Shown here: one piece after another, positions 1 through 19,100 of the stretch
How positions within the stretch are numbered: the stretch's first letter is position 1
How the letters are laid out: every line of letters starts with the position of its first letter
Origin: Trypanosoma brucei
Taxonomy: Eukaryota
Assembly: GCA_000002445.1 (NCBI GenBank)
Contig: CP000067.1
Location: forward strand, 960,001 to 1,024,000
Length of the DNA: 64,000 nt
Reading direction: 5' to 3'
Notes under the pieces: model-generated
Databases searched by the model: none
Seen by the model: the letters and a program-made list of their open reading frames with translations, nothing else
What the model was told of the DNA's origin: nothing
Position numbers and translations under genes: made by a program

Positions 1-432
1 CACAGTGCGCTCTGATGCAGTTGCTTTATGCCTCTTGCAAGCGTCCGGCTGTTTAACAGTGTTTTGCCAACTTTTGTTCCTTTCATTCTGCTGTAAAATA
101 AAACCATCAGCCGCTTTCCGTGTGACATCCAAGGCATTCGCGTAAACTATGAATGCCGCTCCCATGTGCGACGGCGACGGGTGACCAAGGGCCATCTGGA
201 AGCGCTGAAGCAGCCTTAGCGTGGGGCGACCCGGCCGAAATCCCGGTTCTAGTGTGGGCCCCTCCCTCATAAAGTCCCCAATTCCATTACCAACGATGTT
301 CTCGATGGCTTTGCGCGCGCAACTCATCGCTTTCACCGCCTCGTGGACATCCAAACGCTCCACCTTCTTAGGGTGTTTCTGTATGGAAATTATTGATAAC
401 TCTCCCGTGCAGCAGGTACGATTCCATTCCAT
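1..432 (-). CDS. Possible 5' part of a gene running off the left edge of the window (hypothetical protein, N-terminal about 144 aa visible)
   Basis: Translating the minus strand by hand from the ATG at 430-432 down to position 1 gives an open frame with no stop (about 144 codons; MEWNRTCCTGELSIISIQKHPKKVERLDVHEAVKAMSCARKAIENIVGNGIGDFMREGPTLEPGF...). An in-frame stop lies just upstream at 451-453. The supplied ORF track omits it, probably because it is truncated by the window edge. No recognisable domain. Confidence 0.25.
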   Translation of the reverse strand, partial: MEWNRTCCTGELSIISIQKHPKKVERLDVHEAVKAMSCARKAIENIVGNGIGDFMREGPTLEPGFRPGRPTLRLLQRFQMALGHPSPSHMGAAFIVYANALDVTRKAADGFILQQNERNKSWQNTVKQPDACKRHKATASERTV

Positions 433-3400
433 AAACTCACGTCGAATGCCTTAAGGGCGAGGATAAGTAATCTGTTGCCCGGGGCGCGTAGGGATCAACG
501 AAATGTTTCTCCTGCCGGTAGTCGGTTTTGGAGCACCGTCTCATATAGCCGCCAGGAGGTTGAATGGCCCCGACGCGTACACTTTCTTGACGCACCAGTT
601 GCAACGGACCGGAGCCTTGTGCTTTCAGAACGGCACGAAGCACCCTTCATTTGTCATGCGGCCTGGAAGCTACCTCTGCATGTCGACCAGTTCCCCCATT
701 CAATGAGCGATGACACCTCGCAATCCCCTTATCGAGTTTAGTAAGTTGAGGTGTTGAGTGTTGTGGTGTGGCTGTGATTCAAGGAACAACCCCTGCGGTT
801 GCAACACGGATGCCGCACCTCAGACATTTCTCCAATTCGTGCGCGTTCCACCAGTTCCAATTCTTCCGTCAGAGTTCGTCGGCTGTCCTGAGAAAATTTC
901 TCCGTGTGGATTTGGTCTATGAATGCAGAGAAGCTGTTGGTGAATGGGCTCACCCCGTACGTTCCACACACTCATATCGAGGAGATGTTGACCATCACTG
1001 CTCGGTGAAGTTCTATGACATCCATTGGTGCGCCCCGCACTTCCCTTGAGGGGTGACGCATCAGGTGTGAGCTCCCGATGTTGGCACGCACACTTGGTGC
1101 TATCGCCAGTTTTTTGTTGGCCCGAAGCTACTTACCGACATGGCGCCGCAGTAAAGTTATTCCCCTAGTATCTGATCGAATCGTGCGGTTCCACACCGCC
1201 GCGTGACTGTCACCTTTTGCACCAATGAGTTGTGTGCCCTCGGCCGCAAGCAGCACTCACACGCCGGGTTCTTCAAAGTATGGCGTGGCGGAATGTAGGC
1301 GGGGGCGATGATTTGCAGCATGTCGTGTAGTAGGCGGATGGTGCCCTGAGGATGTTCGGCGTGCCCATTCACCTTGCTCACGGTTCTACTGGCAAGTTTT
1401 CTATGACGAACACGTGAATACGCCGCTACCTTTTTACAACGGTAAACTGTGCTGTGAGATGTTGGTGGTCGGCAACACCAAAACGATCGATCCCCGCAGC
1501 TTCTGTTCTCGTTTTAGTAAAAAGACAGAACATTGCCGAAACAACCATGGGTGTTTTGTAGAGTATCTACCTCTTTACTTGAAGGAGCCCGGCGCAGTTC
1601 CATCGCATCCGACGCAACGATGGACCGGGATTCTTCACATCACCAAATCTGAGTGTCCTCATGCGATTGATACTGATAATAATGCCGTGCCGCCAGCTCG
1701 GGGGGTTGAGGGGGCTAACGTGTCCCAGCGCGACACTACTGCTTCGTGTGCCATCCGATACTCTGGTTAGGGTGGTAAAGACAGAAGGGGCTTGCCCTTG
1801 GTGAGAAATCCAACTCAGTCAGGCCATGTGCCGACACATGCTTCCCCTTTTTTGAACTTATCCGGCAGTTGCAATGTGTCAGAGTATTTTCGTCCATTTT
1901 GTACATTCGCCTTCAAGCCTCATGGGGGTGATGCAACTCCGTAGGGTGGGACCCATGTCCAGGGTACTTGATTTATGAGGTGCTCCTCAACCACCGATTT
2001 TGGAACACCATCCCTCCACAGGACCCAGTTATTCTTGCGTTGGATGGTTGTGCGGGTACAGTTGCTCTTCTATGGCCGCGGGCCGCCCTGCTCCTGTTTG
2101 GAGCGCGGCGGTAGCATACAATTGCCCTCTCACTTGCCACTTTCTTAACAGATTTCAGCTACCCTCCTTTGACTGCGTTTCGTGTGCTTGCCATACAGTG
2201 AAACTCCAGTAATCCGATTCTCCGCCCGAAGTTGCATGTTCTATATATTTTTTTTTGAAATTTTCTTCGTGCCTTCGTGAGAGTTTCCCCACACTGGCGC
2301 GGCCATCAGCCATCACCGTAGAGCCCTGAGATGCTATCGGTCTGGCGACTGTGGCAGATTCTCCCTTTTTTTATTCATCCTAACACACTCTCTATAATTT
2401 TTGCTGTATTTCCGCAGTTGAACGGAATACAGCAGATGGGGCGACAAGCCTCCCACCCTGGACTCTCCCAAAGATGTCAATTAGCAATCCTTTTTTGGAG
2501 TTCCACATCACCGGACAGCAGCATCTTAGTGCGGATGATACTGCTGATGGCACGCTGGCACGTGCCCAGGGACCGACAAATGAAGAACGGTGTCCCAGCA
2601 AGACGCTGCTGATCCCTGTGCTGTATGATGCCGTAGCCGGAGCAAAGCAGTGTTCCCCATGAAAGGAACGCTGTTGGCTCTTGGCTTCCCCCGATGATAC
2701 GAGGTACTGGACTCTGACACCACGTTGAGGTGGCCGGCATCGCCAGGGTGTTCTATATATTCTCCCCAGCGGGAGGCGAGGCTGATAAGCACTACGCGGC
2801 GATACCAAGGTGCGTCTCTACTCGGATAAATCCTGTGTGAAAGCCTCTCAGCGCTTCCTAGTGACTCCACTTGGGTGATGCCACTTACCCTATGTGCGGT
2901 AATATCGTTCTTGCCAACTTTGCTCCTTGTCCAACGTGATTCGACCCTCTTCTCAGTGGCCGCAAATCGAGGCTTGAGGGATTTTTTTTTTTCGCATCGC
3001 TCACCCCGACCCCGCCACGTGAAAGGCACATGGATCCCAAGTGCGGACCCCGAATGGCGGACGCCCCGTTCTTTTTCCTCTTCGGAATCTCCATAAGTTG
3101 CTTCTTTCACCACTCGACCACGCCCTCCAGCCCTTGGTGTGGCGTCTCCATCGGTTTCGCCATGTCCAAGATCGTTGCGGTGATGTTCAGATCACAAGCG
3201 AATAAACTATCCCCGAGTCACGGGGTTTCATTTACCTCCACACTCTGCCTTCCCACCGTCACGTTTAAAAGAATGAGACTTGGACAATGATACCGGGGGA
3301 AAAAGCGCATCCCGGCATTGCATTATTGGACAAGGCGCTGTTTGTTCTAACCGTTTCAGTTTATTTTATAAACAGCAAAATATTTGTCTGCCGTGTCAGG

Positions 3401-6400
3401 CATGAGTTTACTTTGAACCGCCGCAGCACGCGGGGGAAGCGTCGCAGTCCAAAAAATCGCTAACACATTACTCATAAATAAGCACTACAGCGCCGCGCTT
3501 CTCCTTCCCCAGGACCAATCATATTCATTGCCTATCTAGTGGAGCTGATGCCGAATACTCGTGGTCGGAAGCCGAGCTGCTGCTCCATAGAGCCTTTAAA
3601 AATCCTTATTGCGGGTTCTTCAACGAGTTCGTACACAGTGCTAGTTAATATCGCCGACTGAGGCGAAACAATGCCCTCAGCCGATTCGTTTTATCCAATG
3701 GATGGTACGATGATCATCTCCCCCGCTACTCAGGAGGCTTGTTTAATCTCCGGAAACGATCGTAGAGGTAAAGGAATATGCCCTGCTAATTCCACCCATC
3801 TTCCCTGCCTTCTCAGAATAAATCTCGCCTTTCCCAATCGCAGTTCGTCCTGACGATTCCTGTCGCTTTTATCAACTTAGTGTGTTCAAACAATTCAAAC
3901 ACGCCGCCCTTGGTCATGGAAATACTCACTGGAGGGACTTCCAGATCCCCCCTGGCACGCTTCGCATACATATCAGCTTGCGTCTCCTGTTACCTCTTCG
4001 TCAATGGATGTCCGCATACTGTTGGCACCGGGGGCGGGGTGACGGACGCGACGAAATCCCTAACTTAACCAGTCTCCAGTCTTCGTTTTCGGTAGATGAT
4101 GGTTTTGAGGCACTTTGTTGCCGTGCTGGTGCGGTAGTGTCGGTCACCGTCACCTTTCTTGGGTCAACGCGGGGCAGCCCTTTCGCCAAAAGTGTGCGTG
4201 AGTGTGGGTTGTTTGTGGTGCCATGTGGTAGATTACGTATGCGATAACTCCCTTGATCTAGCTGGCTCCTGCGATCACTTTTACCCCCTTTATCCTCTTA
4301 GAGGGTATCAACTGCGCACCGCTTTCGGGAGATTAGCCATATACCCCCTTCCCTCAAGTGCAAGAGCGAATGTGGCCTTCAGCACACAATTCCTTCTGCA
4401 TCACTCCCTGCCTCTGCATCGAAGGTGACCCAACGCTGATTACCATCAAGGGCCATCACCTCTTTCCGGGATGCGACCTCATATTTTTTAAATCAGGCAA
4501 CTTCTGTGGGGGACGGCCGAACCATAAACTAAGCTTCGTCAGATTGGGGACACGTTACCGGCAACAGTAAAACCTCGGTCCACGGACCAACCAACTGTAA
4601 ATTCCCCATCCTTGGCATCTGGAACGCAGGACCCCTGTTCAGAGTGGTGGGAATTTGCATCCGCTCAAATCGCTAACGTTTTTTAGATTCTAGCTCGGTT
4701 GGTCAAACATTCCATGCTTACATGGGGGCTTCTGGGGAAATGTACCGAGTTCGCAGCAAGGCACTCGCCATTTCCAAGCTGCATCATAGCAGACACCACT
4801 TGCCAGGTTCCATTTTTTTTTTTGACCCTCAACCACGTCTGACCCGCTCTGAACGGGTATAGAGACGACGCCGTCCTTTACTTTAGAGCTGGACCACACT
4901 GCGTGTTTGTAGCGGTAGAAAGTACGTACCACATTTACTCCAGCCTTCGTGTATACCCTTGAGGGAAGCAAAAGACCACCGGAAGCAGGTGAATAATATG
5001 GAAGAGACAATCTCTCTCCGGCTTAGGCACTTCCTGCACCCCTTCGAGCTTTGCAGAGAATGAGAACTTGGTTATGCTTAACCTTCCTATTAAGGGGTCG
5101 CTACGATCCCACCGATGCAGAGCGTAACAGTATGCTTGCGCCAGAAGCGACATGCGCTCAGAGGTTATACTTCACCAGTAGTTCTCTGTTAGTTCTGCAC
5201 ACGGCTTCTGGTCGCTGTGCTCTAATCGCCAACACCACTTCGACGACACAAAGACACTAACTTTTGGTGGGTTCCTTTTGCACGGGAGGTAGGACCCTAG
5301 TACTACGATGAAGTACCCAGCATGACGAGGGGTACATGCCGTAAGGTACGCAAGCTTTTCGTCTTGGATGACAATGTTCCCACCATAATGAGGAATAGAG
5401 AAAAATAGCGGTCGATTTTCCTAACACATCCAATTCGCCGCACATCAGCCCGTATCGGCACTCCCAGAGTAATATAAGACCACTAAGAATACCGAGATAA
5501 TCGCACAACCCCATGGTACTGACGTTCCTTCGGCTTAGAGACATCAGAACATTCGCAAACAATTTACTCACAAACATTGGTGATGCACTATTCAGACTGA
5601 CGTTGAGTAACAACGGTATGTCTATACCGGTGCTTATGAAATCAAAGCTGATATGCCGTTCCCGTAACAAAATCTGTAGCATGATCTATATTTCCCTTAA
5701 AAATCCTTCTCCCCGTCGTCTTAACCACTCGCTCAACTGTGCAATGATGTGGAAAAGATAATAGGATCAGCTTTCATTACTTTATTCACTCTTCGCAGTT
5801 TCCGTCTGGTATGGCCTCCACATTGAAGACAGAACACTGCCTTCGTCAACAATAGTCAGGAGCGATTTTTTACTCAGTAACAGCGAGGATGCGAGTACAC
5901 AAGACAATGCAGCCTTAATGTTAGGCCGCATACGGCTTTCATTACTTCAAACAAGTTAAGCACCTTTGAACCAACTGCACGGTCCTTGTTGCGGCTTAAA
6001 ACATTCTAACACCGCAGATGTCTAGGTTACCCGAAGGAACCACTTGTGTACCTCACCTCCATAACATATTATCACATGAAAGAGCTACCTTATTTCACCG
6101 GAAAAAAGACAACGAAGAGTGGTAGACTGGCTGACGTACCTACGCTAACAACATTTCCCCCCTCGTGACTAGACTGAAAGAAGCTCAGCAACACCGAGGC
6201 AGTGCGTATTCGATACCAGTGTAGCACCTACTGAACAAATGGTTCATTGTACGCAGTTTATTTTGCATACCAACAGCATTGAGGCCACGCAAGTGTCTAC
6301 ACTAAATTGGCCAAAAGAAGAGTTATGGAGAACATGTATTTCTGTCCCTCACAATTGTGCAGAGAAAGGGACGTGATGAGAAGAAAAAAAAAACGAATGC

Positions 6401-8721
6401 TATTATGACAAGGATGCATCTCCACCACATGCCGTGTGCTTTGTGGGATTCAATGACATCGGCTGTTTATACCGAATAAAACACAGAAAAAATTTTGCGT
6501 CACCCACCCGCTCTGACGCGCTACACAGAACACGATTTGGCGTGGTGACAAGTAATCATACCCTGCCTTCGAGTTTTCGCAGTGACTTTAAAAGGGTATT
6601 TTAAACACCCGAATCAGAGCGAAACAACCACGATGAACGTACCCTACAGTCGGAACATTTTTCTGTTATTGTTTTCTCAAAATAAAACGAAACAACAAAA
6701 CAACACACACACACGAGTGTCCGAAAAATACAACGGATGACGGTTCCATGCTTGATCTTACGCGTTTTCGTACGGATTGCTTGCAGGCTCAAGTGCCTCC
6801 CTTTTTTACTAATTCATCCATGTGGCTCTGTTGCCTAAATACCGGCGTTGTAACTCATAAACGCGGTGTTTTAACTACAAATGACGGTGCGCAAGAGCAC
6901 GACAAAAAGCTAGTGACATATTTCCCATATCCCTGACAGCGGTACTGAAGCCACGGAGTTATCACCAAATAGTTAACTTCACAATCCCTTTGTTCCTTCG
7001 TAACATCCTCGCTTCGTGTTGCAAGAAGGGAGTGTAATTGCTTGCCCGTTTTCAATGCCCAGTGCAGTTGGTGGCACCAAAAAGGCCATCCTTAGGTAAA
7101 CGTCCAGGTCTCCAGATATTAATCGGCAAGGAACTCTCCCGAAACTGGGTGATAGCAAACGTAAGTGTTTTCGTCTGAAAATTACTCTCCTGTTTGTGAG
7201 GTTGGATAGCCACGCAAAGTTCATGTGGTAAAAATGCTTATTTCCAGTGCAGATGATTGTGCACATTCTGTCTTCTATCACGGCAAAAACTTGTCCTCTG
7301 AAGTATCAGAAAAAATTAACCGAGCACGAGTTGGTTAAAACGAGCATGCACATGGTCATTACTTACAGCAATCGTACTTGGGTTGAGGAAAAAAAAATAA
7401 AAAGAATAGCGGCACCTTGGAACGCAAGGCGCCTCGAAGCGATCATTGTGTTAGAGTGCTGACGGCGACCTCAACCACCACAGTATGTTATCAGGCGATG
7501 GTGCTTTGCTTAGGTAGGGATGTCAAATCTCTACCACGCACTACACCAGCTTTTCGGCACGGTAGAAAGTTGGCGAGCGCCAACTAACAGTCAAATACAC
7601 GACAAGCCGGTTATCAGATGGGACATTCTCTTCGGAGTCGTCTAGGAGCATGTGCATTTCTCTGCACCGGCAGCTGTACACAAATGTTAAAGCCGAAAAG
7701 TTAGCATTGAACAACTGGATATATCTAGGAGCTTGGGCGAAATATGGAGATCATGTCATCAGAACAACACTTCTGCGCTGGCTGCAATCCTGTCACGCAA
7801 AGCAATGTAAGCCTTACTTCCTTTTGACAGATCACATAACTTCAATGATGACGCAGACTCCTCTGCTGCTGCATGTTCCAACAATATGCTACAGACTATA
7901 ATTTCTGCATGAACTGCAGTGACGCCGCAATGATATACCATGGCATATTCTAACACTCATTCTTGCATGATCTCTCGTACTTCCGACAACATCAGGCAAG
8001 TTTTGAGCATTCGTCGTCAACAAAAATTCGTGTTTGTTTCTACTAGCACTACCGCCGACGTTCGTGGAGGTGTTATTCATCCGCTTCACACCAGCACAAG
8101 TGCTTCGTACTGTCGCGGACACGGCAATACCTAAAACAGGTTCGCTCGCGGTCTCCCCACCTCCACTTCCTCGCGGATTATTCTTTCTGCCTGCCCACTG
8201 GGGCGCAGTCGAACTAAGGAGACGGGCATATCCATTTGCACTTCGACTGCCCCGCGATACAACTGCCCCAACAGCCAAGGGACCACACAACACGGGACAC
8301 AGTGCTCGGCATCACTTTCCCAGTTCCCCTTTCCTTTTTCAATTCCGCCGCTGCGGTCAACCGACTAAACTTCCGTGGGGGATCGTCGGCATGTTGAGTG
8401 CCTACGGGCGCGCACGACTGCCCCGCGTGTCTACATCTGCGCAAGCTAACCCCGAGGCAAGAGGCGTGACCCCACAACACCCGGGGGCGTGCAACTGCTT
8501 CCCGCCCCACTTCGGACCCGATTGACAAGGCGTCACCGCAGTTGAAGAACATCAGGCCTCCACCGGGGCCGATCGAAACCTTTCAGCGTCCCTTAAGTCC
8601 GTAACGTCCTACCGTGCGGACGGGTGGCCCCTACCCAGTAGCTGATCCGCAGGCGCAAACCAGCGCAGAGGGAAGGGGGTTTGACACTCCTGTGATACCT
8701 CATGCGGTCGAGGGCCAACGC

Positions 8722-8926
8722 AAGCATGATGGTAGCGGCGGGGTGGAGCTCCGCGAACGTATTTTCTTCATAACTCATCCTCAGCCGATGAGAAGCAGCA
8801 TTTGTACTGTGGCACGCGATCTTCCAGAGCCACTTATCAATATAACAGATGAGAAAGTGACCCTCGGTTTCTCATCCATATTACCGGGGAGCTGGTCCTT
8901 AATACCGCAGCGAAATGCCCAGAGCG
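8722..8926 (+). repeat. Left arm of a ~205-bp inverted repeat pair (partner at 12828..13029)
   Basis: The DNA at 8722-8926 is almost the exact reverse complement of 12828-13029 (2-3 mismatches seen). This also shows as an identical 67-aa stretch (KHDGSGGVELRERIFFITHPQPMRSSICTVARDLPEP.INITDE.VTLGFSSILPGSWSLIPQRN) in ORFs 8614..8943(+) and 12718..13077(-). Confidence 0.85.
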
Positions 8927-9472
8927 AGGGGAAAAGGAGGTGAGCGTTGCGAGCCGGCCTGTCCTTGCGGGTGCCAGCGGGCTTTGGGTTTTCAGGGTGG
9001 AACGATCAAAGGGGCGGTGGGAGAGTGGAAGCGGATGGGAATACGCTGAAGTACTGTGGCAGCGCCGCGTGCGACCGGTTGCTATGCGGGAACCTCCGTG
9101 GGTGGTGGTGGCTTCTGACTGTAAGTCGCGTGCCCGTGGTTGGGGTGCGAGCGTTTTCAAAGAGGCTCTTTATGACGAAAAATGAGTGGCCATTCGGTGT
9201 CGTCTCCTCCGTCGACCGCCGCGAAGGTATTTACTTTGTTCCATTTCATTTGCGCGATGCTTTGTGCTACAACCAGATTGAAAATATAACACCTCCTTGA
9301 AAACCCAAAGGAAAATTTCTATTTTCATTTAGAGATAAAGTTCAGGAGACAGGAATATTTTGTGATGCTCCGCGGTGTGGGCAGACATATTGCTACAGAA
9401 CGCGCGATACCATTGGTTGGGAGGTGAGCGTTGGAAAAGGACATGAAGCGAAGTGGGAGATAGGAGGTATAT

Positions 9473-9487
9473 GTGTGTGTGTGTGTT
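9473..9487. repeat. (GT)n microsatellite
   Basis: Reads gtgtgtgtgtgtgtg. Confidence 0.8.
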
Positions 9488-12400
9488 GGGCGGTGGATCG
9501 GGGCGCGGTCCGATACAAGCGGTGGGCCGCCGGAGGCAGCGACGAGACATGTGCAAGTAAGTGGCACAACCCGAAAAAAATAAAAAATAAATTGGAGTTT
9601 GGTCAGGAGCTGACCCGCCTATGTGGCGAATCTGGACTTATATTTGCTTCTGTAGACTGTATGTTTCTGAATTTTGGTGATGCTGGATACCCACCCACCC
9701 ACTCACTCCCCCAAACACACGTACGTGTACATTCGTACGTGCATGTGCTGCTGTTTCTGGCTATCAGTTGTCCTACTGTGCGATGGCAGCGGATGACAGA
9801 TGTGAGTGGCTTGGGGGGGGGGGCGATATATTGCACATGAGTACATGGTATAATGTGTATGTGCGCGGCAGCGACGGAGATGGGTTTACCTATTGGTGGA
9901 TGGAGAAGGGCCGCTACTAGTGAGACCAACCAAACTATGCACACTTTTGGCAACGCTTTCCCCACCACGCCCCCCGGCGAGAAGGCTTTGTGAACATAAT
10001 ACAATGTCGTTACGCGTTTGATAAAGCGCTTAACGCTAAACGTCCCGTGCATGTGTTTGTGGCTGTGCTTTCCTTCAGATTGCTGTAAGTAAAGCGCATA
10101 TGTGAAAACTCATCTTTAGAGTTTCATTGGGAGTGTTATGCAGTTTCGTACTGGTGTCCAGGGGTGTCCACTGCAACGGTAGTTTGTGACTTCAGTTTCA
10201 TTCGTTGAATTTGCATTTCTAATTAATTGGCCCCCTTCGTGTTGGGGGACGCATTGTTGTGGGGTTGAAGAGTGTTTCTCATGGTGTTGTCGCAAAGCGG
10301 TCGACACCATGCTCTGTCACACGTGTAGGGCGGTTGTATGCGCGGGGACGTTGAGTCTTTTTTTTTTCGGAAGAAACATAGAGGGTGGGCGGAGGTGCCA
10401 ACGGGCGTCTTCCGACTTCACACAAACATGTTATTCATGCCTACCATAAGGCTGATAGGTGGTTCAACGTGGAAGAGTTTTGTGAGACATTTATGTTTTT
10501 ACAGTGGCTGCACGATGCTCTCATGGATTCGTGGACGTACAGGAAGTGTGGTACAAGTCACATTGATACTGGAAGCTGTTGTAAGGTCAACATGTACGCT
10601 TTCAGTAAGCGTCTAACCGGCGGTGGGACAACTGATTTGTGGATGGCCACTAGCGGAGGCAGCAGATGAAATTGTATGACACATTATTTTCAGAGACTAT
10701 GGGTTTCTTCACTTCATGTTTGTCAATGTCCATTATATTTGTGAAGGTGGTGTCTTGAGCCGCGCGTCGGCGCATTCCTCATCCGGCGTACTTGTTTGGC
10801 AAATGTTCGCGGTAAAGGACTCGAAATCATATGGCAAGATGGTCATCATGAATGCTCTTGAGAGCACTGGGTCCGTAGCCAGTTTGTGGTTGACCAGGCT
10901 TAGGCCACGTGCGAATATCAATGCGCGATTCAAAGAACAAAACAGGAATGTGAGCTTCAGCTCAACCGCCCTGTGCTTACACGAAAAGATTACTAACGTT
11001 AATTATTTATTAGACTAACCGCGATAGCGGTGCCGCTTACGTCCGGAAGGATATGGGACAAACTATGAAAACTGCTCTGCACAAGTCAGCTGAATTGTGC
11101 AAATTGTAACAGAATTAAACCAAGCTAAATTGCGGACAAAGCTTCCTCGCTGTAACGATGACCGTGGAGATACTTTCCCTTTTTCCTTTCCGCTAGTCAC
11201 ACAATTGTCCAACTTCCGTGCAATATCGCCGCGACAGGCGCGGCGTAGACACTCTACGGGCTAAGTTACTAATTCAATAGATATCAGAGATTTCCTGAAA
11301 CGCGTGAGCAAGGCATTCCGTAGTGGTTGTATAAGTGTAAAGCAAGGTGGAGGAGGAGAATAATTGTGTACAGTTGGGAGGAGCTGTGTCAGGAAATTAG
11401 ATCACGGCACAAAGGGCGGAGGTGACCTGATGGAGGCGGTGTTTTTTTCTTCTTTTTAACTGTGTTGAACTCGCCGAACCCATTTCTACATACATCAGGG
11501 GCAGTTACCATGATGCTCCTTACCCTTTCTCATTTTCAGGTTGAAATGTTGACCAGTATAGGCACTGTGTCTTAATGTGGCGGCAGCTATCGGTATGCAT
11601 AATGCGGCAGTTCAAGTCGAACCCCTAAGTTGGTCAGGTGAGAGGAAGAGAGCATGCCATACGTCGGGGGAGTGTTCGGTGGAGACCCACCGATATATGA
11701 AAATGTTCGTTGTGCTTAATGCTGGCACTGCCGGTGTACGCTCTAGTTCCGCGAAGGTAAGTCTACATGTCCCTATTCGATGAACCGAGGTGGCCCACAT
11801 CTTTTGCGGTCCACAACCACTCCTTCTGACACATTTTTGCATCCACTGCACATTGCATGGTCGCGGTTTTATTATTGCCCTAAGGACTTTGTGGCTGCTG
11901 GCGACGTTTGAGGCGAATATGGGGTGTTATTGCCCTATGCGGCGTGTTCATTTTGACTTATACCCACAACGACATTGATGTGGTGGCTACAAGCTCACAT
12001 GTCTCTTCGTGCCTAGAGTTTCAAAAAAGAAAAAAAAAGGAAACATGGCTATACTGTTGTTAGTATCATTTGTTAGTAGAAATATCTCTTATGTTTTTTT
12101 GTGACCAGAAAAAGCTTCGCAATAATGTCTAATATAGTATTCCTTGTACCGCTGTTTTGCATAGGGGTTGTTTTCATCAACTTTCTCCCTTTGTAGAGGT
12201 CTTAAAAGATTGTGAGGCAACGTGTAAGCGCACACAGACAACCAGCCAGCCGTGAGGGGGATTCAAAGGGAGGTGGTCTTGTATTTTTGTCTATAGGATG
12301 CGGAGGAGTGCACTTACCAGAGCGAGATGCCACTGAATGGTACAAAGTTTCTGGTGATTCTTGTTTCAACGCTACCAAAAGCAACACTGTATATTCCCTA

Positions 12401-12827
12401 GCGTTCAAACTCTACACGCTAGCGGTGGAGGCGTTCCGTGTTGAATGCCTTGAAGAATCACCTGGTAGAGGTGTGAATTACACCAATGCGGCGAGGCACT
12501 CGACGAAAAGGACAATATATGGCGGTACCGAATACATGTATTTCGATGAACATGGGTGTGCACACAAAGTTTAATCGCGCCGTTGCGCGGGGAGCATCGA
12601 GATTCCGTCATTGCCTATCGTTCACTTTCTTTTTTTAAATGAGGATATACACTGTAGAATATACGAATGCTCTGTCAGCACGGGGTGACCGCTAGAGGGA
12701 CTACGCATTAAAGGTCATCACATAACTCTACAAAAAGCCGCTTCACTGACTGAGTTATCGCTAACAAAGCTTTGCATGTCCTGTGTGTGTGAGTCGCTAA
12801 TGCAAAACTGCAGAGGTCGCTTGGTTT

Positions 12828-13029
12828 CATGACAATTTCGCTGCGGTATTAAGGACCAGCTCCCCGGTAATATGGATGAGAAACCGAGGGTCACTCTCTC
12901 ATCCGTTATATTGATAAATGGCTCTGGAAGATCGCGTGCCACAGTACAAATGCTGCTTCTCATCGGCTGAGGATGAGTTATGAAGAAAATACGTTCGCGG
13001 AGCTCCACCCCGCCGCTACCATCATGCTT
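12828..13029 (-). repeat. Right arm of the ~205-bp inverted repeat pair
   Basis: Reverse-complement match to 8722-8926. It ends about 240 bp upstream of the adenylate cyclase ORF at 13266. Confidence 0.85.
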
Positions 13030-13265
13030 GCGTTTATGTTTGGATGCTTTGGAGGGTGACAGTAAGGTACTGCGCATGTACGCTAGGGGAAGACCTGTTT
13101 GCGATTGAAGGGTGTGTGTGTCTTGGCGCAGTTGCGTCTCGAATCCTTTGACAATTTTCCCAGCGCATAAACATTTTATTAGGGTCTCTGGATCTGGGAT
13201 GTCTCTGAGGTGCCACCGTACCTGTCGATGTCACGAGGTAGACGTTTCAAACTTAGGTTGCTCCA

Positions 13266-16200
13266 ATGTGCAACATCAGATCTAGTTTCTTATGCGCACT
13301 TTCCCCATTTCTTCTCAGCACAACTATTCTTCCTGCTATTTCTGTAGGCAACAAACTTGAGCAGCTGGGGGGCCCTATCATGTTTTCTTTCACGCCTCGG
13401 GTTGGGCTTAGCTTTGACATTTCTGGCAGACGGGGAGCAGATAACTCTGGTTTGTGCCGCCCTCACCGTCTACGCTTAGCCACCGTAGTGATGTTACTAC
13501 TCTTCATGGCTCCCCCAGCTTTATCAGAAGATGTCATGACGGTTAGGGTCTACTCTTTGCTATATAATCCTCTTATACCGGACAACCTATGCGATGCAAT
13601 CAATGCAGGACTCAACGCTTCTCTGGCATCCCGCAAATGGACTGTTGCACCCGATGTCAAGGTAGAGCTCATTTCACCTACGTCTTACAAGATCAAGCCT
13701 GTTGAGGTCCTTCAAGTCGCCTTAGAGCGACACAAAGGCGAGTTCTTTGTCGTCATTGGGCCAGTTGGCGACGGTCAGGCGCTTGCCTCCCTTCCATTGC
13801 TGGAGCGAGAGAATTTGGTCGGTTTTGCTCCGTCCACCGGGTCCAACGCTATGCGTGGATGGAATCCCCACGTATATTTTCTCAGTGCTTCGCCCAATGC
13901 GGAATTGCTCACCCTCGTTCGCTATGCTGTCAGCCAACTGCGCCTGCTTCGGATTGGATTTATGTATCTTCGGGGCATTTCCTTTGGTGATACTGAGTAT
14001 AAGATGACCACGTCACTAATGTCCAGCGTGGGCCGTGAGCTATGTGGTGTGTTTACTGTGGACGGCTTAATGAGAGGACGGGTCAACGATGATGACTTTA
14101 ATACCGCCTGGGAGCAGTTTGCGGAGACGAGACCGCAAGGCGTCATCGCGTTTGCCCCTCCGGCAAAAGACCTCATCAAGTTTGTGAAGAGGTTGTTGTC
14201 TGACAGCCGCACGCACGATGCTTACTTGCTGTCTTCTTCATCGCTTGAGTTCGCACTAGACACGTGGCGCGAGGCATTGGAAGCAGATGGTGCTGAATTT
14301 TTTCTTGGCCAACTCATGCTAACACGAACAGGTCCACTGGCGAGGGACACACACTACCAAGCAATCAGGCGCTTTCAGGATCACATGAGGTCGTACCTGA
14401 GCGCTAATCCTGGAGTGACTGTTTTCAATGGCACGGATAACTTCGACCACGACGACGTGGATGGGGAGCTTATGGTGTATGGGTGGATTGCGGGAGAAGT
14501 GCTGTCCCAGGCGCTAAGTAGTCGGGAGTGGCTAACAAGCAGGAAGGCATTCATGGAGTCACTGTATAACCAGCGCCGTTATGTTATTGACGACCTTGTG
14601 ATTGGTGATTTTGGTGGAGACTGCAAAGGTGGGGCCGGTGAGCGAGGAGCAGCATGCAACTGTAATCAGGGAGGGAATGTGCTGTACATCAATGTCGTCG
14701 GAAACGACGAGCGATTCCACACGGTGCAGGGAGGAACAACAGTCTTTGAACCGTCCAGGTGCCTTGCTGAAAGCGTAAGACTGTACTCTCCACTGAACAC
14801 TTTGATGTTTTTAATGCTGGATCGCGAGTTGGCGCAGGTCTCCAGCGAGGCACTGTACTACGGAGCTAATGTTCTAACTGGTAACGGGAGATTTGGTCAA
14901 TCTGATCGGCTATTTATAAGCATGATACCTTCGCCGTCAAATGCCACCTATTTGGCACTACAGAGCGAGCTTGACACAAGGAGTGTGACGGCTGTGTTTG
15001 GTGTCGTTGATGATGCGATGCTGTCCATTGCCGAAGTTGCCTTCGTTGACCCTGTAATGCTTACACCACGCCTGCATCATCGTGGCAGAAACGTGATTCA
15101 ACTTTCACCCACACTCGAGCAGCAGTTGTTTGTTGTTGTGGGTTACGTGACAAACACAAGTGCCAGCGCCCCTATGTCTGCCATCGTACGTGGAGCTGAT
15201 GCCACCATCATTGAGGTCGCACTGCGGAAGATTGTTTGGATGCACGGCGGAACACTGCAAACGGTAGCTGTGCTGGATGACAATGCCACCCTTGTTGGGC
15301 GCCTGCCAAACCGTGGGAATGCGTTTGTTATTGGTCTTGCCCCCGGTGACCCTTCCTTGCTCGCAGCGCACCTGGATCGCAACCCAGATGTGCGTGTGCT
15401 CATCCCATTCTTCGACGTTGCCCTGATGTATGATGAGCTGGTCAGCGCATTCAATGGTAACCCGAACGCTGAGCGTGTGCAGTTCGCGACAAGTTTACCT
15501 CACTGGGCAGACGCCAATACGTCATCAGAGATCGTAAGAGAATTTCATACCGCATTGCCAGACTCATCAGCATGGAAGCCGCTGCCGTTGCTGGGGTACG
15601 CTGCTGCACGGTTTGCTCAAGCCGTCCTCCCACGCATGGAGTATGTGACACCCAAAACGCTGCTTGACACCATCTACATGCAATCTATCATTACCGCGGA
15701 TGAAATGCGGTACGGTCCTTTTGAAGAGGAAGAGGAGAAGGAGTGCTTCACAGCCAATGACCCAGTCCCTGAACAAGGAGAGGTGTGTGTTGTGAACTAT
15801 GGCGCAACGCGTATTTCCATGTGGTCACTGGCACGTGCATTAAATGCCTCCGTACCGCCATTAACCTCGCCCGTCACGCCATTGATACGCTACGCTGATC
15901 CTAACGCCATTAAGTTGTCGTCCGCACAACTTGCCGGAGTTATTGTTGGTTCCCTCGTCGCCTTGGCTTTGTTTGCTGCGCCTCTGGTGGTGGTGCTCTA
16001 TGTTCTGCGCCGTGGTGCGCGTGACAATGACAGTGCTCCCAAGGAGCCAATGGAGCCCGTAACGCTAATCTTTACTGACATAGAGAGCAGCACAGCGCAA
16101 TGGGCAGCACACCCTGAGCTGATGCCTGATGCCGTGTCAACACACCACCGTCTTATCCGCTCACTCATCGTACAGTACGGATGCTATGAGGTAAAGACTG

Positions 16201-17090
16201 TTGGGGACTCGTTTATGATTGCTTGTAAAAAACCTTTTGCTGCTGCACAGCTTGCGTCCGACTTACAGCGGTGCTTCCTGCGCCATGAGTGGGGCACCAC
16301 AGCATTCGACGATTCGTATCGTGAGTTTGAGAGGCAGCGTGCAGATGACGATAACGAATACAAGGCACCGTCCGCACGGTTGGATCCTGAGGTTTATCGC
16401 CAACTGTGGAATGGGTTGCGCGTGCGTGTCGGGGTCCACACTGGTATTTGCGATATCCGCCGAGATGAGGTGACAAAAGGCTACGATTACTACGGGCGAA
16501 CATCAAACATGGCAGCGCGAACAGAAAGTGTGGCTAATGGTGGTCAGGTGCTGCTGTCGCGCGCGGCATATCTTTCGCTAAGCAATTCAGAGCGTGGGCA
16601 ACTTGACGTGACAGCTCTTGGATCCATGTCGTTGCGTGGCGTCCCTAAGCCTGTTGAAATGTACCAACTAAACGCTGTAGTCGGACGGTCCTTCGCAGCA
16701 CTGAGGTTGGACCGCGAGGTTGTCGAGGACGGGGATCTGTCAAGCACTTCCTTCAGCGATACGGGATCCTTACGTGGCGTATTAAGTGGAACTTCGCAGA
16801 TGATTGACAGCTGTTTGCATGCCGTGCTTGGAACGCTAGGTCCATCCCAAAGACAGAAACTATTGATGCCTTTATGCGAGCGCTGGCAGGTGAGCCTCCC
16901 GCCGTCATCGAAAGCCACGTGGAATGAGGAATATTGCGAAGGAGTTATACGGCGTATTGCAGTGAAAGTGGGTCGAGTGGTCGATCACTGTGCAGCAAGT
17001 GGCAGTGAGCGGTCCGCGAGTACACTTAGGAGTGCGTCACTCATTATAATTTCTAATCATGGATTGGATGGGGAGGCGCGTACCACATAG
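13266..17090 (+). CDS. GRESAG4: Receptor-type adenylate cyclase (GRESAG4-like): extracellular periplasmic-binding-protein-like domain, one TM, class III cyclase catalytic domain. Solitary inverted paralogue of the downstream array
   Basis: 1274-aa ORF. TM segment LAGVIVGSLVALALFAAPLVVVLYVL is followed by cyclase catalytic motifs (VTLIFTDIESSTAQWAAHPELM, YEVKTVGDSFMIACK, RVGVHTGICD, GRTSNMAARTES). About 700 C-terminal aa are near-identical to the three array copies. The real start is probably ATG 13380 or 13491 (see regulatory feature). Confidence 0.9.
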   Translation: MCNIRSSFLCALSPFLLSTTILPAISVGNKLEQLGGPIMFSFTPRVGLSFDISGRRGADNSGLCRPHRLRLATVVMLLLFMAPPALSEDVMTVRVYSLLYNPLIPDNLCDAINAGLNASLASRKWTVAPDVKVELISPTSYKIKPVEVLQVALERHKGEFFVVIGPVGDGQALASLPLLERENLVGFAPSTGSNAMRGWNPHVYFLSASPNAELLTLVRYAVSQLRLLRIGFMYLRGISFGDTEYKMTTSLMSSVGRELCGVFTVDGLMRGRVNDDDFNTAWEQFAETRPQGVIAFAPPAKDLIKFVKRLLSDSRTHDAYLLSSSSLEFALDTWREALEADGAEFFLGQLMLTRTGPLARDTHYQAIRRFQDHMRSYLSANPGVTVFNGTDNFDHDDVDGELMVYGWIAGEVLSQALSSREWLTSRKAFMESLYNQRRYVIDDLVIGDFGGDCKGGAGERGAACNCNQGGNVLYINVVGNDERFHTVQGGTTVFEPSRCLAESVRLYSPLNTLMFLMLDRELAQVSSEALYYGANVLTGNGRFGQSDRLFISMIPSPSNATYLALQSELDTRSVTAVFGVVDDAMLSIAEVAFVDPVMLTPRLHHRGRNVIQLSPTLEQQLFVVVGYVTNTSASAPMSAIVRGADATIIEVALRKIVWMHGGTLQTVAVLDDNATLVGRLPNRGNAFVIGLAPGDPSLLAAHLDRNPDVRVLIPFFDVALMYDELVSAFNGNPNAERVQFATSLPHWADANTSSEIVREFHTALPDSSAWKPLPLLGYAAARFAQAVLPRMEYVTPKTLLDTIYMQSIITADEMRYGPFEEEEEKECFTANDPVPEQGEVCVVNYGATRISMWSLARALNASVPPLTSPVTPLIRYADPNAIKLSSAQLAGVIVGSLVALALFAAPLVVVLYVLRRGARDNDSAPKEPMEPVTLIFTDIESSTAQWAAHPELMPDAVSTHHRLIRSLIVQYGCYEVKTVGDSFMIACKKPFAAAQLASDLQRCFLRHEWGTTAFDDSYREFERQRADDDNEYKAPSARLDPEVYRQLWNGLRVRVGVHTGICDIRRDEVTKGYDYYGRTSNMAARTESVANGGQVLLSRAAYLSLSNSERGQLDVTALGSMSLRGVPKPVEMYQLNAVVGRSFAALRLDREVVEDGDLSSTSFSDTGSLRGVLSGTSQMIDSCLHAVLGTLGPSQRQKLLMPLCERWQVSLPPSSKATWNEEYCEGVIRRIAVKVGRVVDHCAASGSERSASTLRSASLIIISNHGLDGEARTT
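13285..13347 (+). promoter_or_regulatory. Polypyrimidine tract plus AG dinucleotide, a candidate SL trans-splice acceptor for the plus-strand adenylate cyclase
   Basis: The sequence tctagtttcttatgcgcactttccccatttcttctcagcacaactattcttcctgctatttctgtAG (AG at 13346-13347) lies inside the 5' extension of the long ORF. The first ATG after it is 13380 and the next is 13491 (MLLLFMAPPALSED, signal-peptide-like). Trypanosomatid trans-splicing uses a polyY tract followed by AG. Confidence 0.45.
14970..17065 (+). repeat. About 2.1-kb block of the plus-strand cyclase gene that is near-identical, in inverted orientation, to each tandem array copy (e.g. 47290..49390)
   Basis: From codon LDTRSVTAVFGVVDDAML onward the translations of all four copies agree residue for residue, with rare substitutions. 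The same antisense small ORFs recur (15143..15454 matches 48903..49214; 16544..16918 matches 47439..47813). Confidence 0.85.
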
Positions 17091-17879
17091 ATATTTATCC
17101 CTGGCTCGGGAGCCTGCACAATTAAGCTTTTCCCTTTTCAGTTTGGCGTGGAGTGTCCGCGGCGACGCATGCGCATACGTGGCACGTGCTTTTATAGAAC
17201 CCGACAGTTTACTCTGTGTCTTCCCTTCCTTTCACAACGCATTGCGTTATCATTTCTGATTTGAAAATACCATGCAATACCCCTGGCCGGGGGGGGGGGG
17301 GTTAATTCCTCTTTTGCATTCCGTGTATTCGAGAGGAGAGCAATTATTACCACCCAAATTGTTCCATTCGTAAATTTTGTTCGCAAATTATTGAAACTGA
17401 AAATAACTTCCTTAAAGTGTTCAGTGGCTCATAATCCCGCCCCACCATCGTTTTGCCAATTTTTTTCTTCTTTTCCGTTTTCTCCGCAGCAGGAGGGGAT
17501 AAGTAATCCCGGTCTTAAGCTAATTTCAGTACGGCCACATTTTGCATTTTTTTTTCCCCCTTCCCTCTTTTTTATTATGCGCCAGCGCTGCCAGTGGCAT
17601 GCTTGCTGGTGTGCATTGTTTCTTATTTCTACTTTACTACGGCGATGCGATTTTCCTTTTCCAGGAGGGGACCTTGGTGCACCCATGTGCGCAATGGCAT
17701 TGAATGTGGTATGCGTGCCAGTGAGTTTTCATGGGCTTGTTGTGTGTTGGAACGTGTGGCTTCCACCCACTGTGGATGTTTTACCGATTGATGAATCTCC
17801 TTAAAGCTCCCTCCTTTGGAACGTCTGCGTTTTTTTTTCTCTTGTCTTTCATCACCTAGTGATTTGCTTTTCTCTGTAA

Positions 17880-19100
17880 GGAAGATTAGCTGCTTCCATG
17901 CGTCGGCCCCCTCTTCCGCGTAGATACGGTTTGGCACGCCGGCTTGTCTGAGGAACCGGCGGGACCGGGCGGTTGCGGTTGCAGGGTGAGAGTTGTAACC
18001 GCAGCGCGCACCTTTTGGCAGCGAGAACCATCAGGCATTCGGGGTGCCGTTGGGCGACGGAACAGGTGACGTCGAAAGGGAAATAGAGGGAGGGGGTGGG
18101 TTGGCTGCTGTGCAAGCGGCGGGTGCATTGCCAGGTCCCTTTTTAAATGGGTATGTTAATAGCGTCGGCTTCCAGTCCATCCAACAGTGGGGCGGGCGCG
18201 GGAGTCGTGCGTGTTCGGGTGGAGCGGCTTGGGGAGAGGGGGGGGGGGGGAGGGACTGTGGACTGAATTACGTGGCTGAGGCGGCGGGCGTCGCGGAAAC
18301 AAGAGATCCATTAAGTTTGTATGGTGGGGGGGCAGGGCTCCCGGGAACTCCGACCATCCTCATGTGGGGTTGACTGGGCGGTGAAGTGTGAGGGGCTTTG
18401 GGCCTTAAACGGCAATTCCCGCGGAAGCCGGGCGATGAAATTGCCTTATGGAGAACTGGGTCGTTCAAAGGTGTCCGGTCCGAGGGATTGGGTTCTCACT
18501 TTTTTGTCGGACGCGTTCGAGCAAAGCTATCGCGAGAAAATTTTTGGGGCCATCGCCCCACATGGCGGCAAGCCACTTCCCCTCCCCCCAGATTCGCGTC
18601 AGTGCTGACGATGTCGCGCTTGAGAGTTCCTGACGTAACCGTGGTGCAAGGAGGTCAAAAAGCGTAGGAAAAGGAAGGACCGGGCTAGTGGATCACAAGG
18701 ACTTTTTTCTCCCCCCCACCCACCGGGATGCGGCCACCGAGCGAAATAATAATGTGTATTTTTTAAAAGTTGGGAACCATAAGCAAACACAGTGACCGGT
18801 AGGTTGGGGAGCGGACCTGGGCAGGCGAGTGTCGCTGGAGACCACAGCCCCGAGACTTGAGAGATGCAGGTTTCGCTTCTCGAATGCGACCCTCTTCGTG
18901 AAAAGTGCGCCTTTCGGTTATGGTCAAAACCGGCTTTGGCGAACCGAAAGGGGGGACGGGGGAGGGGGCCCAACTGTTTTAAAATTTGGAGCGGAAGTCC
19001 AAGGGCCGGAAGCTCTTCAGCGGGGTCCGATACATACAAAACTGTTATGGAACGCCCTTCTTTTCACGCACAGATATGTAGCGGATTTTCCTAAAATTTT
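17880..19100. other. GC-rich, G-run-containing island inside the AT-rich convergent strand-switch region
   Basis: This stretch has much higher GC than its flanks and contains G13 at 18238-18250 and several GGGG runs. Only glycine-rich artefactual ORFs are present, and no RNA gene could be recognised. Confidence 0.5.

What the first reader, a model, noticed from the sequence alone, without database searches (positions are those of the whole stretch)
8722..13029. Near-perfect 205-bp inverted repeats bracketing a 3.9-kb non-coding segment immediately upstream of the solitary cyclase gene
Two copies with about 99% identity in opposite orientation (8722-8926 and 12828-13029) enclose 3.9 kb that contains only short ORFs, a (GT)n and a G11 run. 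Possible explanations are terminal inverted repeats of a decayed mobile element, the footprint of an inversion or duplication event, or paired fragments of a dispersed repeat family. The near-identity implies a recent origin or conversion. The right arm lies only about 240 bp from the cyclase ORF and about 260 bp from its putative splice-acceptor tract.
Basis: seen in the sequence. Interest (0 to 1): 0.5.

Follow-up and report, generated by a model that had tools for sequence, protein, structure and literature searches.

The report
Gene-converted inverted repeat beside a trypanosome centromere
A real pair of 200-base inverted repeats brackets the non-coding, probably promoter-bearing stretch upstream of a one-gene adenylate cyclase transcription unit next to the Trypanosoma brucei chromosome 4 centromere; it shows no sign of being a transposon, it is old, and copying between its two arms keeps them alike, so it is a modest addition to a known class of repeats.

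Summary
The inverted repeat is real. The arms are 8717-8916 and 12835-13034, 200 nt each, and 197 of 200 bases are complementary.

The window is T. brucei TREU927 chromosome 4, 960,001-1,024,000. The cyclase is Tb927.4.3750. The published transcriptome lists it as a one-ORF Pol II unit in the divergent strand-switch region that also holds the centromeric 147-bp array.

The same repeat, with the same edges and the same spacer orientation, is present in T. b. gambiense DAL972. At four sites both arms of one genome agree while the two genomes differ. No site groups the arms by position. The arms therefore evolve in concert by gene conversion, so their near-identity does not mean a recent origin.

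I found no target-site duplication, no homology beyond the arm edges, no protein domain in any frame and no further copy in the DNA I could reach. A polymorphic RIME 6 kb away shows what a real insertion looks like here.

The spacer is GT-rich on the cyclase strand. It produces two published spliced non-coding RNAs, and one of them contains the right arm.

Best reading: a local inverted duplication homogenised by conversion, with no proven function. Genome-wide copy number, small RNAs and spacer inversion could not be tested.

The parts
8717..8916 (.). Left arm of the inverted repeat (Tb927_04_v4 968,717-968,916)
   Evidence: It starts 56 bp to the right of the cumulative GC-skew minimum at 8661. 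It folds no better than shuffled sequence on its own (z = -0.49 and +0.70).
12835..13034 (.). Right arm of the inverted repeat (Tb927_04_v4 972,835-973,034). It lies inside the published transcript Tb4.NT.30.
   Evidence: Kolev 2010 Table S7 places Tb4.NT.30 at 972,165-973,248.
8917..12834 (+). 3,918-bp non-coding spacer, GT-rich on the + strand. It is the probable transcription-start region of the Tb927.4.3750 unit.
   Evidence: GC skew is +0.145 and G+T is 0.55, against a skew of -0.078 for positions 1-8716. No Pfam domain in six frames. The ORFs are not conserved as coding sequence. It is 97.85% identical to DAL972, the same as the flanks.
9473..9486 (+). (GT)7 run
   Evidence: It varies in length between 927 and DAL972 (8-bp indel at 9469).
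9813..9823 (+). G11 run on the cyclase-sense strand
   Evidence: Long G and T stretches on the coding strand are the published hallmark of T. brucei transcription-start regions (PMC5579346).
11505..12108 (+). Published novel transcript Tb4.NT.29 (splice acceptor at 11540, poly(A) sites at about 12022-12045)
   Evidence: Kolev 2010 Tables S7, S12 and S13. A polypyrimidine tract and AG lie directly before 11540.
12165..13248 (+). Published novel transcript Tb4.NT.30 (splice acceptor at 12197). It carries the whole right arm.
   Evidence: Kolev 2010 Tables S7 and S12. A polypyrimidine tract and AG lie directly before 12197. Its longest ORF (12212-12574) starts with GTG and shows 1 synonymous against 6 non-synonymous codon changes versus DAL972.
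13266..17090 (+). Receptor-type adenylate cyclase GRESAG4, Tb927.4.3750, the only annotated ORF of its Pol II unit. The major splice acceptor is at 13319, so the first usable ATG is 13380.
   Evidence: 100% identical to XP_844525.1. Pfam domains. Kolev 2010 Tables S1 and S14.

Best explanation
This is a two-copy, local inverted duplication of a 200-bp non-coding segment, not a mobile element. It lies in the divergent strand-switch region of T. brucei chromosome 4 that also contains the centromeric 147-bp array. Its arms bracket the GT-rich stretch from which the one-gene unit Tb927.4.3750 is most probably transcribed.

Shown:
- The repeat predates the split of T. b. brucei and T. b. gambiense.
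- The arms exchange sequence with each other (intrachromosomal gene conversion), which keeps them 98.5% alike while they drift from their orthologues at about the neutral rate of the surrounding DNA.
- The right arm is transcribed as part of a spliced non-coding RNA.

Inferred:
- It arose in one step, as a templated or ectopic inverted copy made during DNA repair or replication. This follows from the sharp edges and the absence of flanking homology.
- The arm sequence itself has no function that depends on its sequence.
- If Pol II starts at or to the left of the left arm, the primary transcript can fold into a 197-bp double-stranded stem with a 3.9-kb loop. That would make the locus a small relative of the known T. 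brucei inverted-repeat siRNA loci.
- The same recombination that homogenises the arms could occasionally invert the spacer.
For: - Identity and context. The cyclase is 100% identical to XP_844525.1 and its neighbour is Tb927.4.3760. Kolev 2010 Table S1 gives the CDS as 973,266-977,090, so the window is chromosome 4 coordinate minus 960,000. Three published splice sites fall exactly after a polypyrimidine tract plus AG in the window, which confirms this mapping.
- Transcription unit. Table S14 lists Tb927.4.3750 as a one-ORF unit of 'Divergent' type, paired with Tb927.4.3740->3300 on the other strand.
- Centromere. Obado 2007 Table 1 places the 147-bp array between Tb927.4.3740 and .3750. In DAL972 the array starts about 11 kb to the left of the left arm.
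- Age. The orthologous DAL972 locus is collinear at 97.5% identity and has the same repeat with the same edges.
- Concerted evolution. The arms are 98.5% identical within a genome and 96.0-97.0% between genomes. Four sites group the arms by genome, none by position, and six are singletons.
- No extra constraint. The arms are 96-97% identical to their orthologues, against 97.9% for the spacer and the left flank.
- Not mobile. No target-site duplication and no flanking homology, no protein domains, and no further copies in the window or in protein space.
- In-window control. A RIME at 2249-2748 has the retroposon 5' signature, a poly(A) tail, a 12-bp target-site duplication and an empty site in DAL972.
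- Promoter-like spacer. The GC-skew minimum is at 8661, and the spacer is G- and T-rich with G11 and (GT)7 runs. This matches the orientation-dependent GT-rich promoters of PMC5579346.
- Double-stranded RNA potential. The arm-to-arm duplex has 197 base pairs at -404.8 kcal/mol.
Against: - Genome-wide copy number was not measured. No tool here holds the T. brucei genome as searchable DNA, so a dispersed family cannot be excluded.
- Only two genomes could be compared, so the four concerted sites could stem from as few as one conversion event in one lineage.
- The exact transcription start sites are not known to me. If all initiation is inside the spacer, the two arms are never on one RNA.
- Tschudi 2012 list no chromosome 4 small-RNA locus apart from the two convergent units and the CIR147 repeats. 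This argues against abundant siRNAs from this repeat in procyclic cells.
- The left arm's position 56 bp from the skew switch, and the way the arms frame the whole GT-rich tract, may mean more than a neutral accident.
Confidence: 0.72

Rival explanations
1. The arms are the terminal inverted repeats of a decayed DNA transposon, or of a MITE-like element, 4.3 kb long.
For: The geometry fits: two inverted arms enclose a few kb with no intact gene.
Against: There is no direct duplication of 2-12 bp outside the arms. No transposase, integrase or reverse-transcriptase domain appears in any frame of the spacer or the left flank. No further copy is present in the window. The element is fixed at the same site in two subspecies, while a genuine mobile element 6 kb away is polymorphic between them. 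From general knowledge (not tested here), no DNA transposons have been described in T. brucei.
Confidence: 0.03
2. The two arms are members of a dispersed low-copy repeat family, for example a fragment of a retroposon or of a gene-family flank, that happen to lie in opposite orientation here.
For: Copy number outside this locus could not be measured. The region is pericentromeric, and retroelements accumulate in such regions (PMC1868937).
Against: A profile search finds no similarity to the RIME in the window or to anything else in 64 kb. The upstream regions of the three paralogous cyclases carry no copy. The arm ORF matches only its gene-for-gene orthologue among 5.8 billion protein clusters, although such 'unlikely' ORFs are annotated in DAL972. 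The retroposon 5' signature occurs once in the window and not in the arms.
Confidence: 0.1
3. The repeat is functional as an RNA hairpin. Read-through transcription from the strand-switch point yields a 197-bp dsRNA stem, which the nuclear Dicer DCL2 turns into siRNAs, or which marks or limits transcription next to the centromere. This would be the same mechanism as at the seven long inverted repeats of T. brucei.
For: All seven catalogued inverted repeats (422-10,011 bp, 99-100% identical) yield AGO1-bound small RNAs (PMC3447711). The arm duplex is near-perfect at -404.8 kcal/mol. The right arm is transcribed. The skew switch lies just to the left of the left arm.
Against: No chromosome 4 locus of this kind appears in the published small-RNA tables, which list loci with as few as 84 reads. 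The arm sequence is no more conserved between subspecies than neutral flanks. No stable transcript covers the left arm. siRNAs against the arm would target only non-coding RNA.
Confidence: 0.15
4. It is an assembly artefact, a mis-join or a duplicated read in the TREU927 reference.
For: The region is pericentromeric, and Obado 2007 note that the centromeric domain of chromosome 4 is larger than the assembly predicts.
Against: The same structure is present in the separate DAL972 assembly, with lineage-specific substitutions in both arms and arm-specific singletons. Published splice sites map cleanly through the region.
Confidence: 0.02

Closest known systems
Long inverted repeats IR1-IR7 of T. 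brucei (Tschudi et al. 2012, PMC3447711)
   Same: They are chromosome-internal pairs of near-identical inverted arms (99-100%) separated by a few kb of unique DNA in the same genome. IR1 has 422-bp arms within a 3.6-kb interval. The authors were puzzled by the very high arm identity.
   Different: This pair is half the size of the smallest catalogued one, lies on a chromosome where none was reported, and is absent from their small-RNA tables. Here the high identity can be attributed to gene conversion rather than selection, because an orthologous pair was available for comparison.
Arm-to-arm gene conversion in large palindromes and inverted repeats, such as those of the human X and Y chromosomes (general knowledge; Warburton 2004 is cited in PMC3447711)
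   Same: Paralogous arms within a genome are more alike than orthologous arms between lineages, which is the signature of concerted evolution.
   Different: The scale differs (200 bp against tens of kb to Mb). The arms here carry no genes, so preservation of gene function cannot be the benefit.
ingi/RIME non-LTR retroposons of T. brucei
   Same: They are the only abundant mobile elements of this genome, and one sits 6 kb away in the same non-coding tract.
   Different: The RIME at 2249-2748 has the conserved 5' signature, a poly(A) tail, a 12-bp target-site duplication (ATATATAGAACA) and an empty site in DAL972. The inverted repeat has none of these and shares no sequence with it.
GT-rich dispersed Pol II promoters and transcription-start regions of T. 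brucei (Wedel et al. 2017, PMC5579346; Kolev et al. 2010, PMC2936537)
   Same: The spacer lies at the head of a 'Divergent' Pol II unit and is G- and T-rich on the sense strand, with long G and GT runs concentrated towards its 5' side.
   Different: Flanking inverted repeats are not a described feature of such regions. Chromatin marks and start sites at this particular locus were not available to me.
Inverted repeats flanking centromere cores (the imr repeats of S. pombe, mentioned in PMC1868937)
   Same: Both are inverted repeats in a centromeric neighbourhood.
   Different: Both arms here lie on the same side of the 147-bp array, about 11 and 15 kb from it, so they do not flank the centromere core.

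Membership tests
DNA transposon or MITE with terminal inverted repeats | Target-site duplication directly outside the two termini | tested here: not met
   The left flank ends ...GGTCGAGGGCC and the right flank begins TATGTTTGGATG.... No match for any length from 2 to 12 bp.
DNA transposon or MITE with terminal inverted repeats | A transposase remnant inside, or for non-autonomous elements multiple dispersed copies | tested here: not met
   Six-frame Pfam scan of the spacer gave 0 families at E<=0.1. No third copy in the window. Genome-wide copy number was not testable.
ingi/RIME/DIRE retroposons | Conserved 5' signature (CCCTGGC...GTATCATCGGGGGAAGCCAAGAGCC), a 3' poly(A) tail and a 12-bp target-site duplication | tested here: not met
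   The signature occurs once in the window, at 2676-2700 on the minus strand inside the RIME, allowing up to 3 mismatches. The arms have no poly(A) tail or target-site duplication and no profile similarity to the RIME.
T. brucei long inverted-repeat siRNA loci (Tschudi 2012) | Two near-identical inverted arms separated by unique DNA on a megabase chromosome | tested here: met
   200-nt arms, 98.5% identical, 3,918-nt spacer. The arms are shorter than the smallest catalogued pair of 422 bp.
T. brucei long inverted-repeat siRNA loci (Tschudi 2012) | Production of AGO1-bound 22-25 nt small RNAs | not testable with these tools
   No read data are available here. The published tables list no such chromosome 4 locus, which suggests low or no production in procyclic cells.
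Repeats under concerted evolution (arm-to-arm gene conversion) | Paralogous copies within a genome are more similar than orthologous copies between lineages, with shared lineage-specific substitutions | tested here: met
   98.5% identity within a genome against 96.0-97.0% between genomes. Four sites group the arms by genome and none by position.
Pol II transcription-start region at a divergent strand switch | Lies between two divergently transcribed units | tested here: met
   Kolev 2010 Table S14 lists Tb927.4.3740->3300 on the minus strand and Tb927.4.3750 on the plus strand, both 'Divergent'. The cumulative GC-skew minimum is at 8661.
Pol II transcription-start region at a divergent strand switch | GT-rich sense strand with G and T runs | tested here: met
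   The spacer has GC skew +0.145 and G+T 0.55, with G11 and (GT)7 runs. The strongest skew is at 9001-9600. The criterion comes from PMC5579346.
Pol II transcription-start region at a divergent strand switch | H2A.Z and H4K10ac enrichment, and 5'-triphosphate RNA ends | not testable with these tools
   Kolev 2010 state that such enrichment was seen at every divergent unit in Table S14. No coordinates for this locus were available.
Centromere-flanking inverted repeats | The arms lie on opposite sides of the centromere core | tested here: not met
   In DAL972 the 147-bp array starts about 11 kb beyond the left arm, so both arms are on the cyclase side.

The most novel reading that the evidence does not exclude
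The repeat could be the recombination substrate of an invertible promoter. The 3.9-kb spacer carries an orientation-dependent GT-rich Pol II promoter. Crossing-over between the arms, which demonstrably exchange sequence, would flip the spacer. Transcription would then be redirected from the cyclase gene towards the centromere, or the reverse. That would be a DNA-inversion switch for a one-gene unit in an organism thought to lack transcriptional control of Pol II genes. The evidence does not exclude this. Two reference assemblies share one orientation, but minority orientations within populations, or in other strains or life stages, were not examined.
Probability: 0.04. Interest if true: 0.75.

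Novelty: new member of a known kind. Interest (0 to 1): 0.27.

Why it matters
Taken alone, this is a small structural feature. It has three uses.

1. It extends the known set of T. brucei inverted repeats to a shorter size class and to chromosome 4.
2. Because an orthologous pair exists in T. b. gambiense, it gives direct evidence that gene conversion between arms, not selection on the sequence, keeps such repeats near-identical. Tschudi et al. left that question open for the larger repeats.
3. It frames the probable promoter of one of the few one-gene Pol II units, directly beside a centromere. This offers a compact natural test of whether an inverted repeat influences directional initiation, hairpin dsRNA formation or local rearrangement in trypanosomes.

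For annotation, the finding also shows what should not be called a transposon here. The RIME 6 kb away serves as a ready-made positive control.

Tried and rejected
- Exact-product look-ups for window proteins failed. TREU927 gene positions are not indexed, so I reached the orthologous DNA through cluster members from DAL972.
- Logan contigs L003 and L004 carry the neighbouring 141-aa ORF but stop short of the repeat, so no third genome was obtained.
- Six-frame Pfam scans of positions 1-8720 and of the spacer found nothing. The DIRE that Obado 2007 describe beside the array was therefore not detected in the window.
- I first read the retroposon 5' signature at 2749 as a DIRE 5' end. The comparison with DAL972 showed it is a 500-bp RIME insertion.
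- Rfam at gathering and at permissive thresholds, and tRNA scans, were negative. The arm has no fold better than shuffled sequence, so I rejected a structured RNA gene.
- I looked for a decayed larger palindrome. The flanks outside and inside the arms, and the two spacer halves, align no better than shuffles, so I rejected that idea.
- Siegel 2009 (histone-variant maps) is not held in the paper library, so I could not check chromatin marks at the locus.
- I did not scan the metagenome, prokaryote or viral DNA collections. They do not hold trypanosome genomes, and a null result would say nothing.
Full report
**Observation.** The inverted repeat is real. The repeat finder places the arms at 8717-8916 and 12835-13034, 200 nt each, with 3,918 nt between them. 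A direct count gives three mismatches, at arm positions 117, 131 and 139, which is 98.5% identity. The rest of the description holds:
- (GT)7 lies at 9473-9486 and G11 at 9813-9823.
- The spacer contains only short ORFs.
- The right arm ends 231 bp before the annotated cyclase ATG.
- It is the only inverted repeat of at least 60 nt in the window that is not explained by the cyclase paralogues.

**Where this is.** The cyclase ORF (13266-17090) is 100% identical to XP_844525.1 of T. brucei brucei TREU927, on a contig of 1,590,432 bp. The next gene (21586-22791, minus strand) is Tb927.4.3760. Kolev et al. 2010 (PMC2936537, Table S1) give Tb927.4.3750 as Tb927_04_v4 973,266-977,090. The window is therefore chromosome 4, 960,001-1,024,000, and the arms are at 968,717-968,916 and 972,835-973,034. 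I checked this mapping. The published splice-acceptor sites 971,540, 972,197 and 973,319 each fall directly after a polypyrimidine tract plus AG at window positions 11540, 12197 and 13319.

**Genomic context.**
- Kolev Table S14 lists Tb927.4.3750 as a Pol II unit with a single annotated ORF, of type 'Divergent'. Its partner is the minus-strand unit Tb927.4.3740->3300.
- Obado et al. 2007 (PMC1868937, Table 1) place the centromere-associated 147-bp AT-rich array of chromosome 4 between Tb927.4.3740 and Tb927.4.3750.
- In T. b. gambiense DAL972 I could read further to the left. The 147-bp array starts about 2.8 kb beyond window position 1, roughly 11 kb from the left arm.
- The repeat therefore sits in the pericentromeric divergent strand-switch region, on the cyclase side of the array.
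- The cumulative GC skew has its minimum at 8661, 56 bp to the left of the left arm. Positions 1-8716 have skew -0.078. The spacer has skew +0.145 and G+T 0.55, with the strongest values at 9001-9600. The 231 bp after the right arm continue at +0.20.
- G- and T-rich sense strands with long G and T runs are the published, orientation-dependent promoter feature of T. brucei transcription-start regions (Wedel et al. 2017, PMC5579346). Kolev et al. report 5'-triphosphate RNA ends at every divergent unit of Table S14.
- The arms thus frame the probable start region of this one-gene unit. This is an inference from composition and published unit maps. I had no start-site coordinates for this locus.

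**Transcripts.** Kolev Table S7 lists two novel plus-strand transcripts in procyclic cells: Tb4.NT.29 (window 11505-12108) and Tb4.NT.30 (window 12165-13248). Both have mapped splice-acceptor sites. Tb4.NT.30 contains the whole right arm. Its longest ORF (12212-12574) starts with GTG and shows one synonymous against six non-synonymous codon changes versus DAL972, so I read it as non-coding. No novel transcript is listed between 947,860 and 971,505, so the left arm is not part of a stable processed RNA. One caveat applies: short reads cannot tell a plus-strand RNA of the right arm from a minus-strand RNA of the left arm.

**Comparative evidence.** The DAL972 orthologue of the cyclase (P0082) gave locus L001 (FN554967.1:919,525-943,349). 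L001 is collinear with window 3287-22000 at 97.5% identity in a single alignment. It carries the same inverted repeat with the same edges and the same spacer orientation. The four arms give these results:
- Identity is 98.5% within each genome and 96.0-97.0% between genomes.
- Of ten variable sites, four (arm positions 53, 75, 146 and 191) have one base in both TREU927 arms and another in both DAL972 arms.
- Six sites are singletons.
- No site groups left with left and right with right.

If the arms had evolved independently since the split, shared changes in both arms of one genome would not be expected. The arms therefore exchange sequence, and the repeat predates the split. Between the subspecies the arms are no better conserved (96-97%) than the spacer (97.85%) or the left flank (97.9%), whereas the cyclase CDS is 98.6% identical. 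There is thus no sign of purifying selection on the arm sequence.

**Not a mobile element.**
- No direct duplication of 2-12 bp lies outside the arms, and the flanks on either side of each arm align no better than shuffles.
- Six-frame Pfam scans of the spacer and of positions 1-8720 returned nothing.
- A profile built from the four arms finds only the two arms in 64 kb.
- The ORF that runs through the arm matches a single protein among 5.8 billion clusters, its DAL972 orthologue annotated 'hypothetical protein, unlikely'.
- The window contains a convenient positive control, a 500-bp RIME on the minus strand at 2249-2748. It has the retroposon 5' signature (CCCTGGCG...GTATCATCGGGGGAAGCCAAGAGCC), an A-run at its 3' end and a 12-bp target-site duplication, ATATATAGAACA. 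The orthologous DAL972 site is empty and holds one copy of that 12-mer.
- The inverted repeat has none of these marks and is fixed in both subspecies.

**Not an RNA gene.** There are no Rfam matches, even at E<=1, and no tRNAs. A single arm folds no better than shuffled sequence (z = -0.49 and +0.70).

**Relation to known repeats.** Tschudi et al. 2012 (PMC3447711) surveyed TREU927 for inverted repeats and found seven, 422-10,011 bp long and 99-100% identical. None is on chromosome 4, and all yield AGO1-bound small RNAs. The authors remarked that the high identity suggested selection. The present pair is the same kind of object below their size range. If both arms were on one transcript they would form a 197-bp duplex (-404.8 kcal/mol). 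However, their supplementary tables list no chromosome 4 small-RNA locus other than two convergent units, one of which (978,400-981,200) is window 18,400-21,200. A role in siRNA production therefore remains unproven and is, if anything, disfavoured for procyclic cells. I found no paper that describes this repeat.

**Conclusion.**
- Shown: the repeat is a real, old, two-copy local inverted repeat with sharp edges, homogenised by gene conversion. It lies in non-coding pericentromeric DNA that heads a one-gene transcription unit, and its right arm is transcribed.
- Inferred: it originated in a single step as an inverted templated copy, it has no sequence-specific function, it could form hairpin dsRNA, and recombination between the arms could invert the spacer.
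- Not testable here: genome-wide copy number, small RNAs, start sites and orientation polymorphism.
- It is a new, small member of a known class, of modest interest.

Noticed in passing
window 2237-2760 (RIME at 2249-2748, minus strand; target-site duplications at 2237-2248 and 2749-2760); empty site at L002 12921-12932: A 500-bp RIME retroposon is present in TREU927 and absent from the orthologous site in T. b. gambiense DAL972. It has the conserved 5' signature, a 3' A-run and a 12-bp target-site duplication, ATATATAGAACA. This is an insertion polymorphism between the subspecies in the pericentromeric tract. A related copy (95% identical) lies in inverted orientation at L002 16944-17443, about 500 bp from the 147-bp array.
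   Followed up: yes
window 13266-13380: The annotated start codon of Tb927.4.3750 (13266) lies upstream of the experimentally mapped major splice-acceptor site at 13319 (Kolev 2010 Table S1). The mature mRNA cannot contain it, so the first usable ATG is 13380 (MFSFTPR...). The real protein is probably 38 residues shorter than the 1,274-aa model.
   Followed up: partly
window 14968-17075 versus 47282-49389, 52443-54550 and 57902-59711: The 3' 2.1 kb of the plus-strand cyclase is 98-99% identical, in inverted orientation, to the three tandem minus-strand cyclases 30-41 kb away. The 5' parts are only 73-90% alike. This much larger inverted homology across the convergent region suggests gene conversion among GRESAG4 paralogues.
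   Followed up: no
window 46516-61414: Three GRESAG4 cyclase genes (Tb927.4.3860-3880 by position) form a head-to-tail array with a 5,161-bp period. Long stretches of the units are 96-100% identical.
   Followed up: no
L002 17929-20426 (DAL972 FN554967.1, about 911.5-914.0 kb): The centromeric 147-bp (CIR147) array begins about 2.8 kb beyond the left end of the window in DAL972. The database's gene caller has called long artefactual ORFs of 568 and 466 aa through it.
   Followed up: partly
window 17289-17301, 18238-18250 and 17787-18786: Two G13 runs lie in the convergent strand-switch region downstream of the cyclase, together with a 1-kb patch of raised divergence from DAL972 (95.8-96.4% identity against 98-100% around it). 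The published siRNA-producing convergent unit CTU9 (978,400-981,200) maps to window 18,400-21,200.
   Followed up: no
window 2750-8716: About 6 kb of C-rich (plus strand) DNA lies between the RIME and the left arm. It has no Pfam-detectable coding remnant in any frame and no listed transcript. The DIRE that Obado 2007 describe beside the array was not recognisable here.
   Followed up: partly
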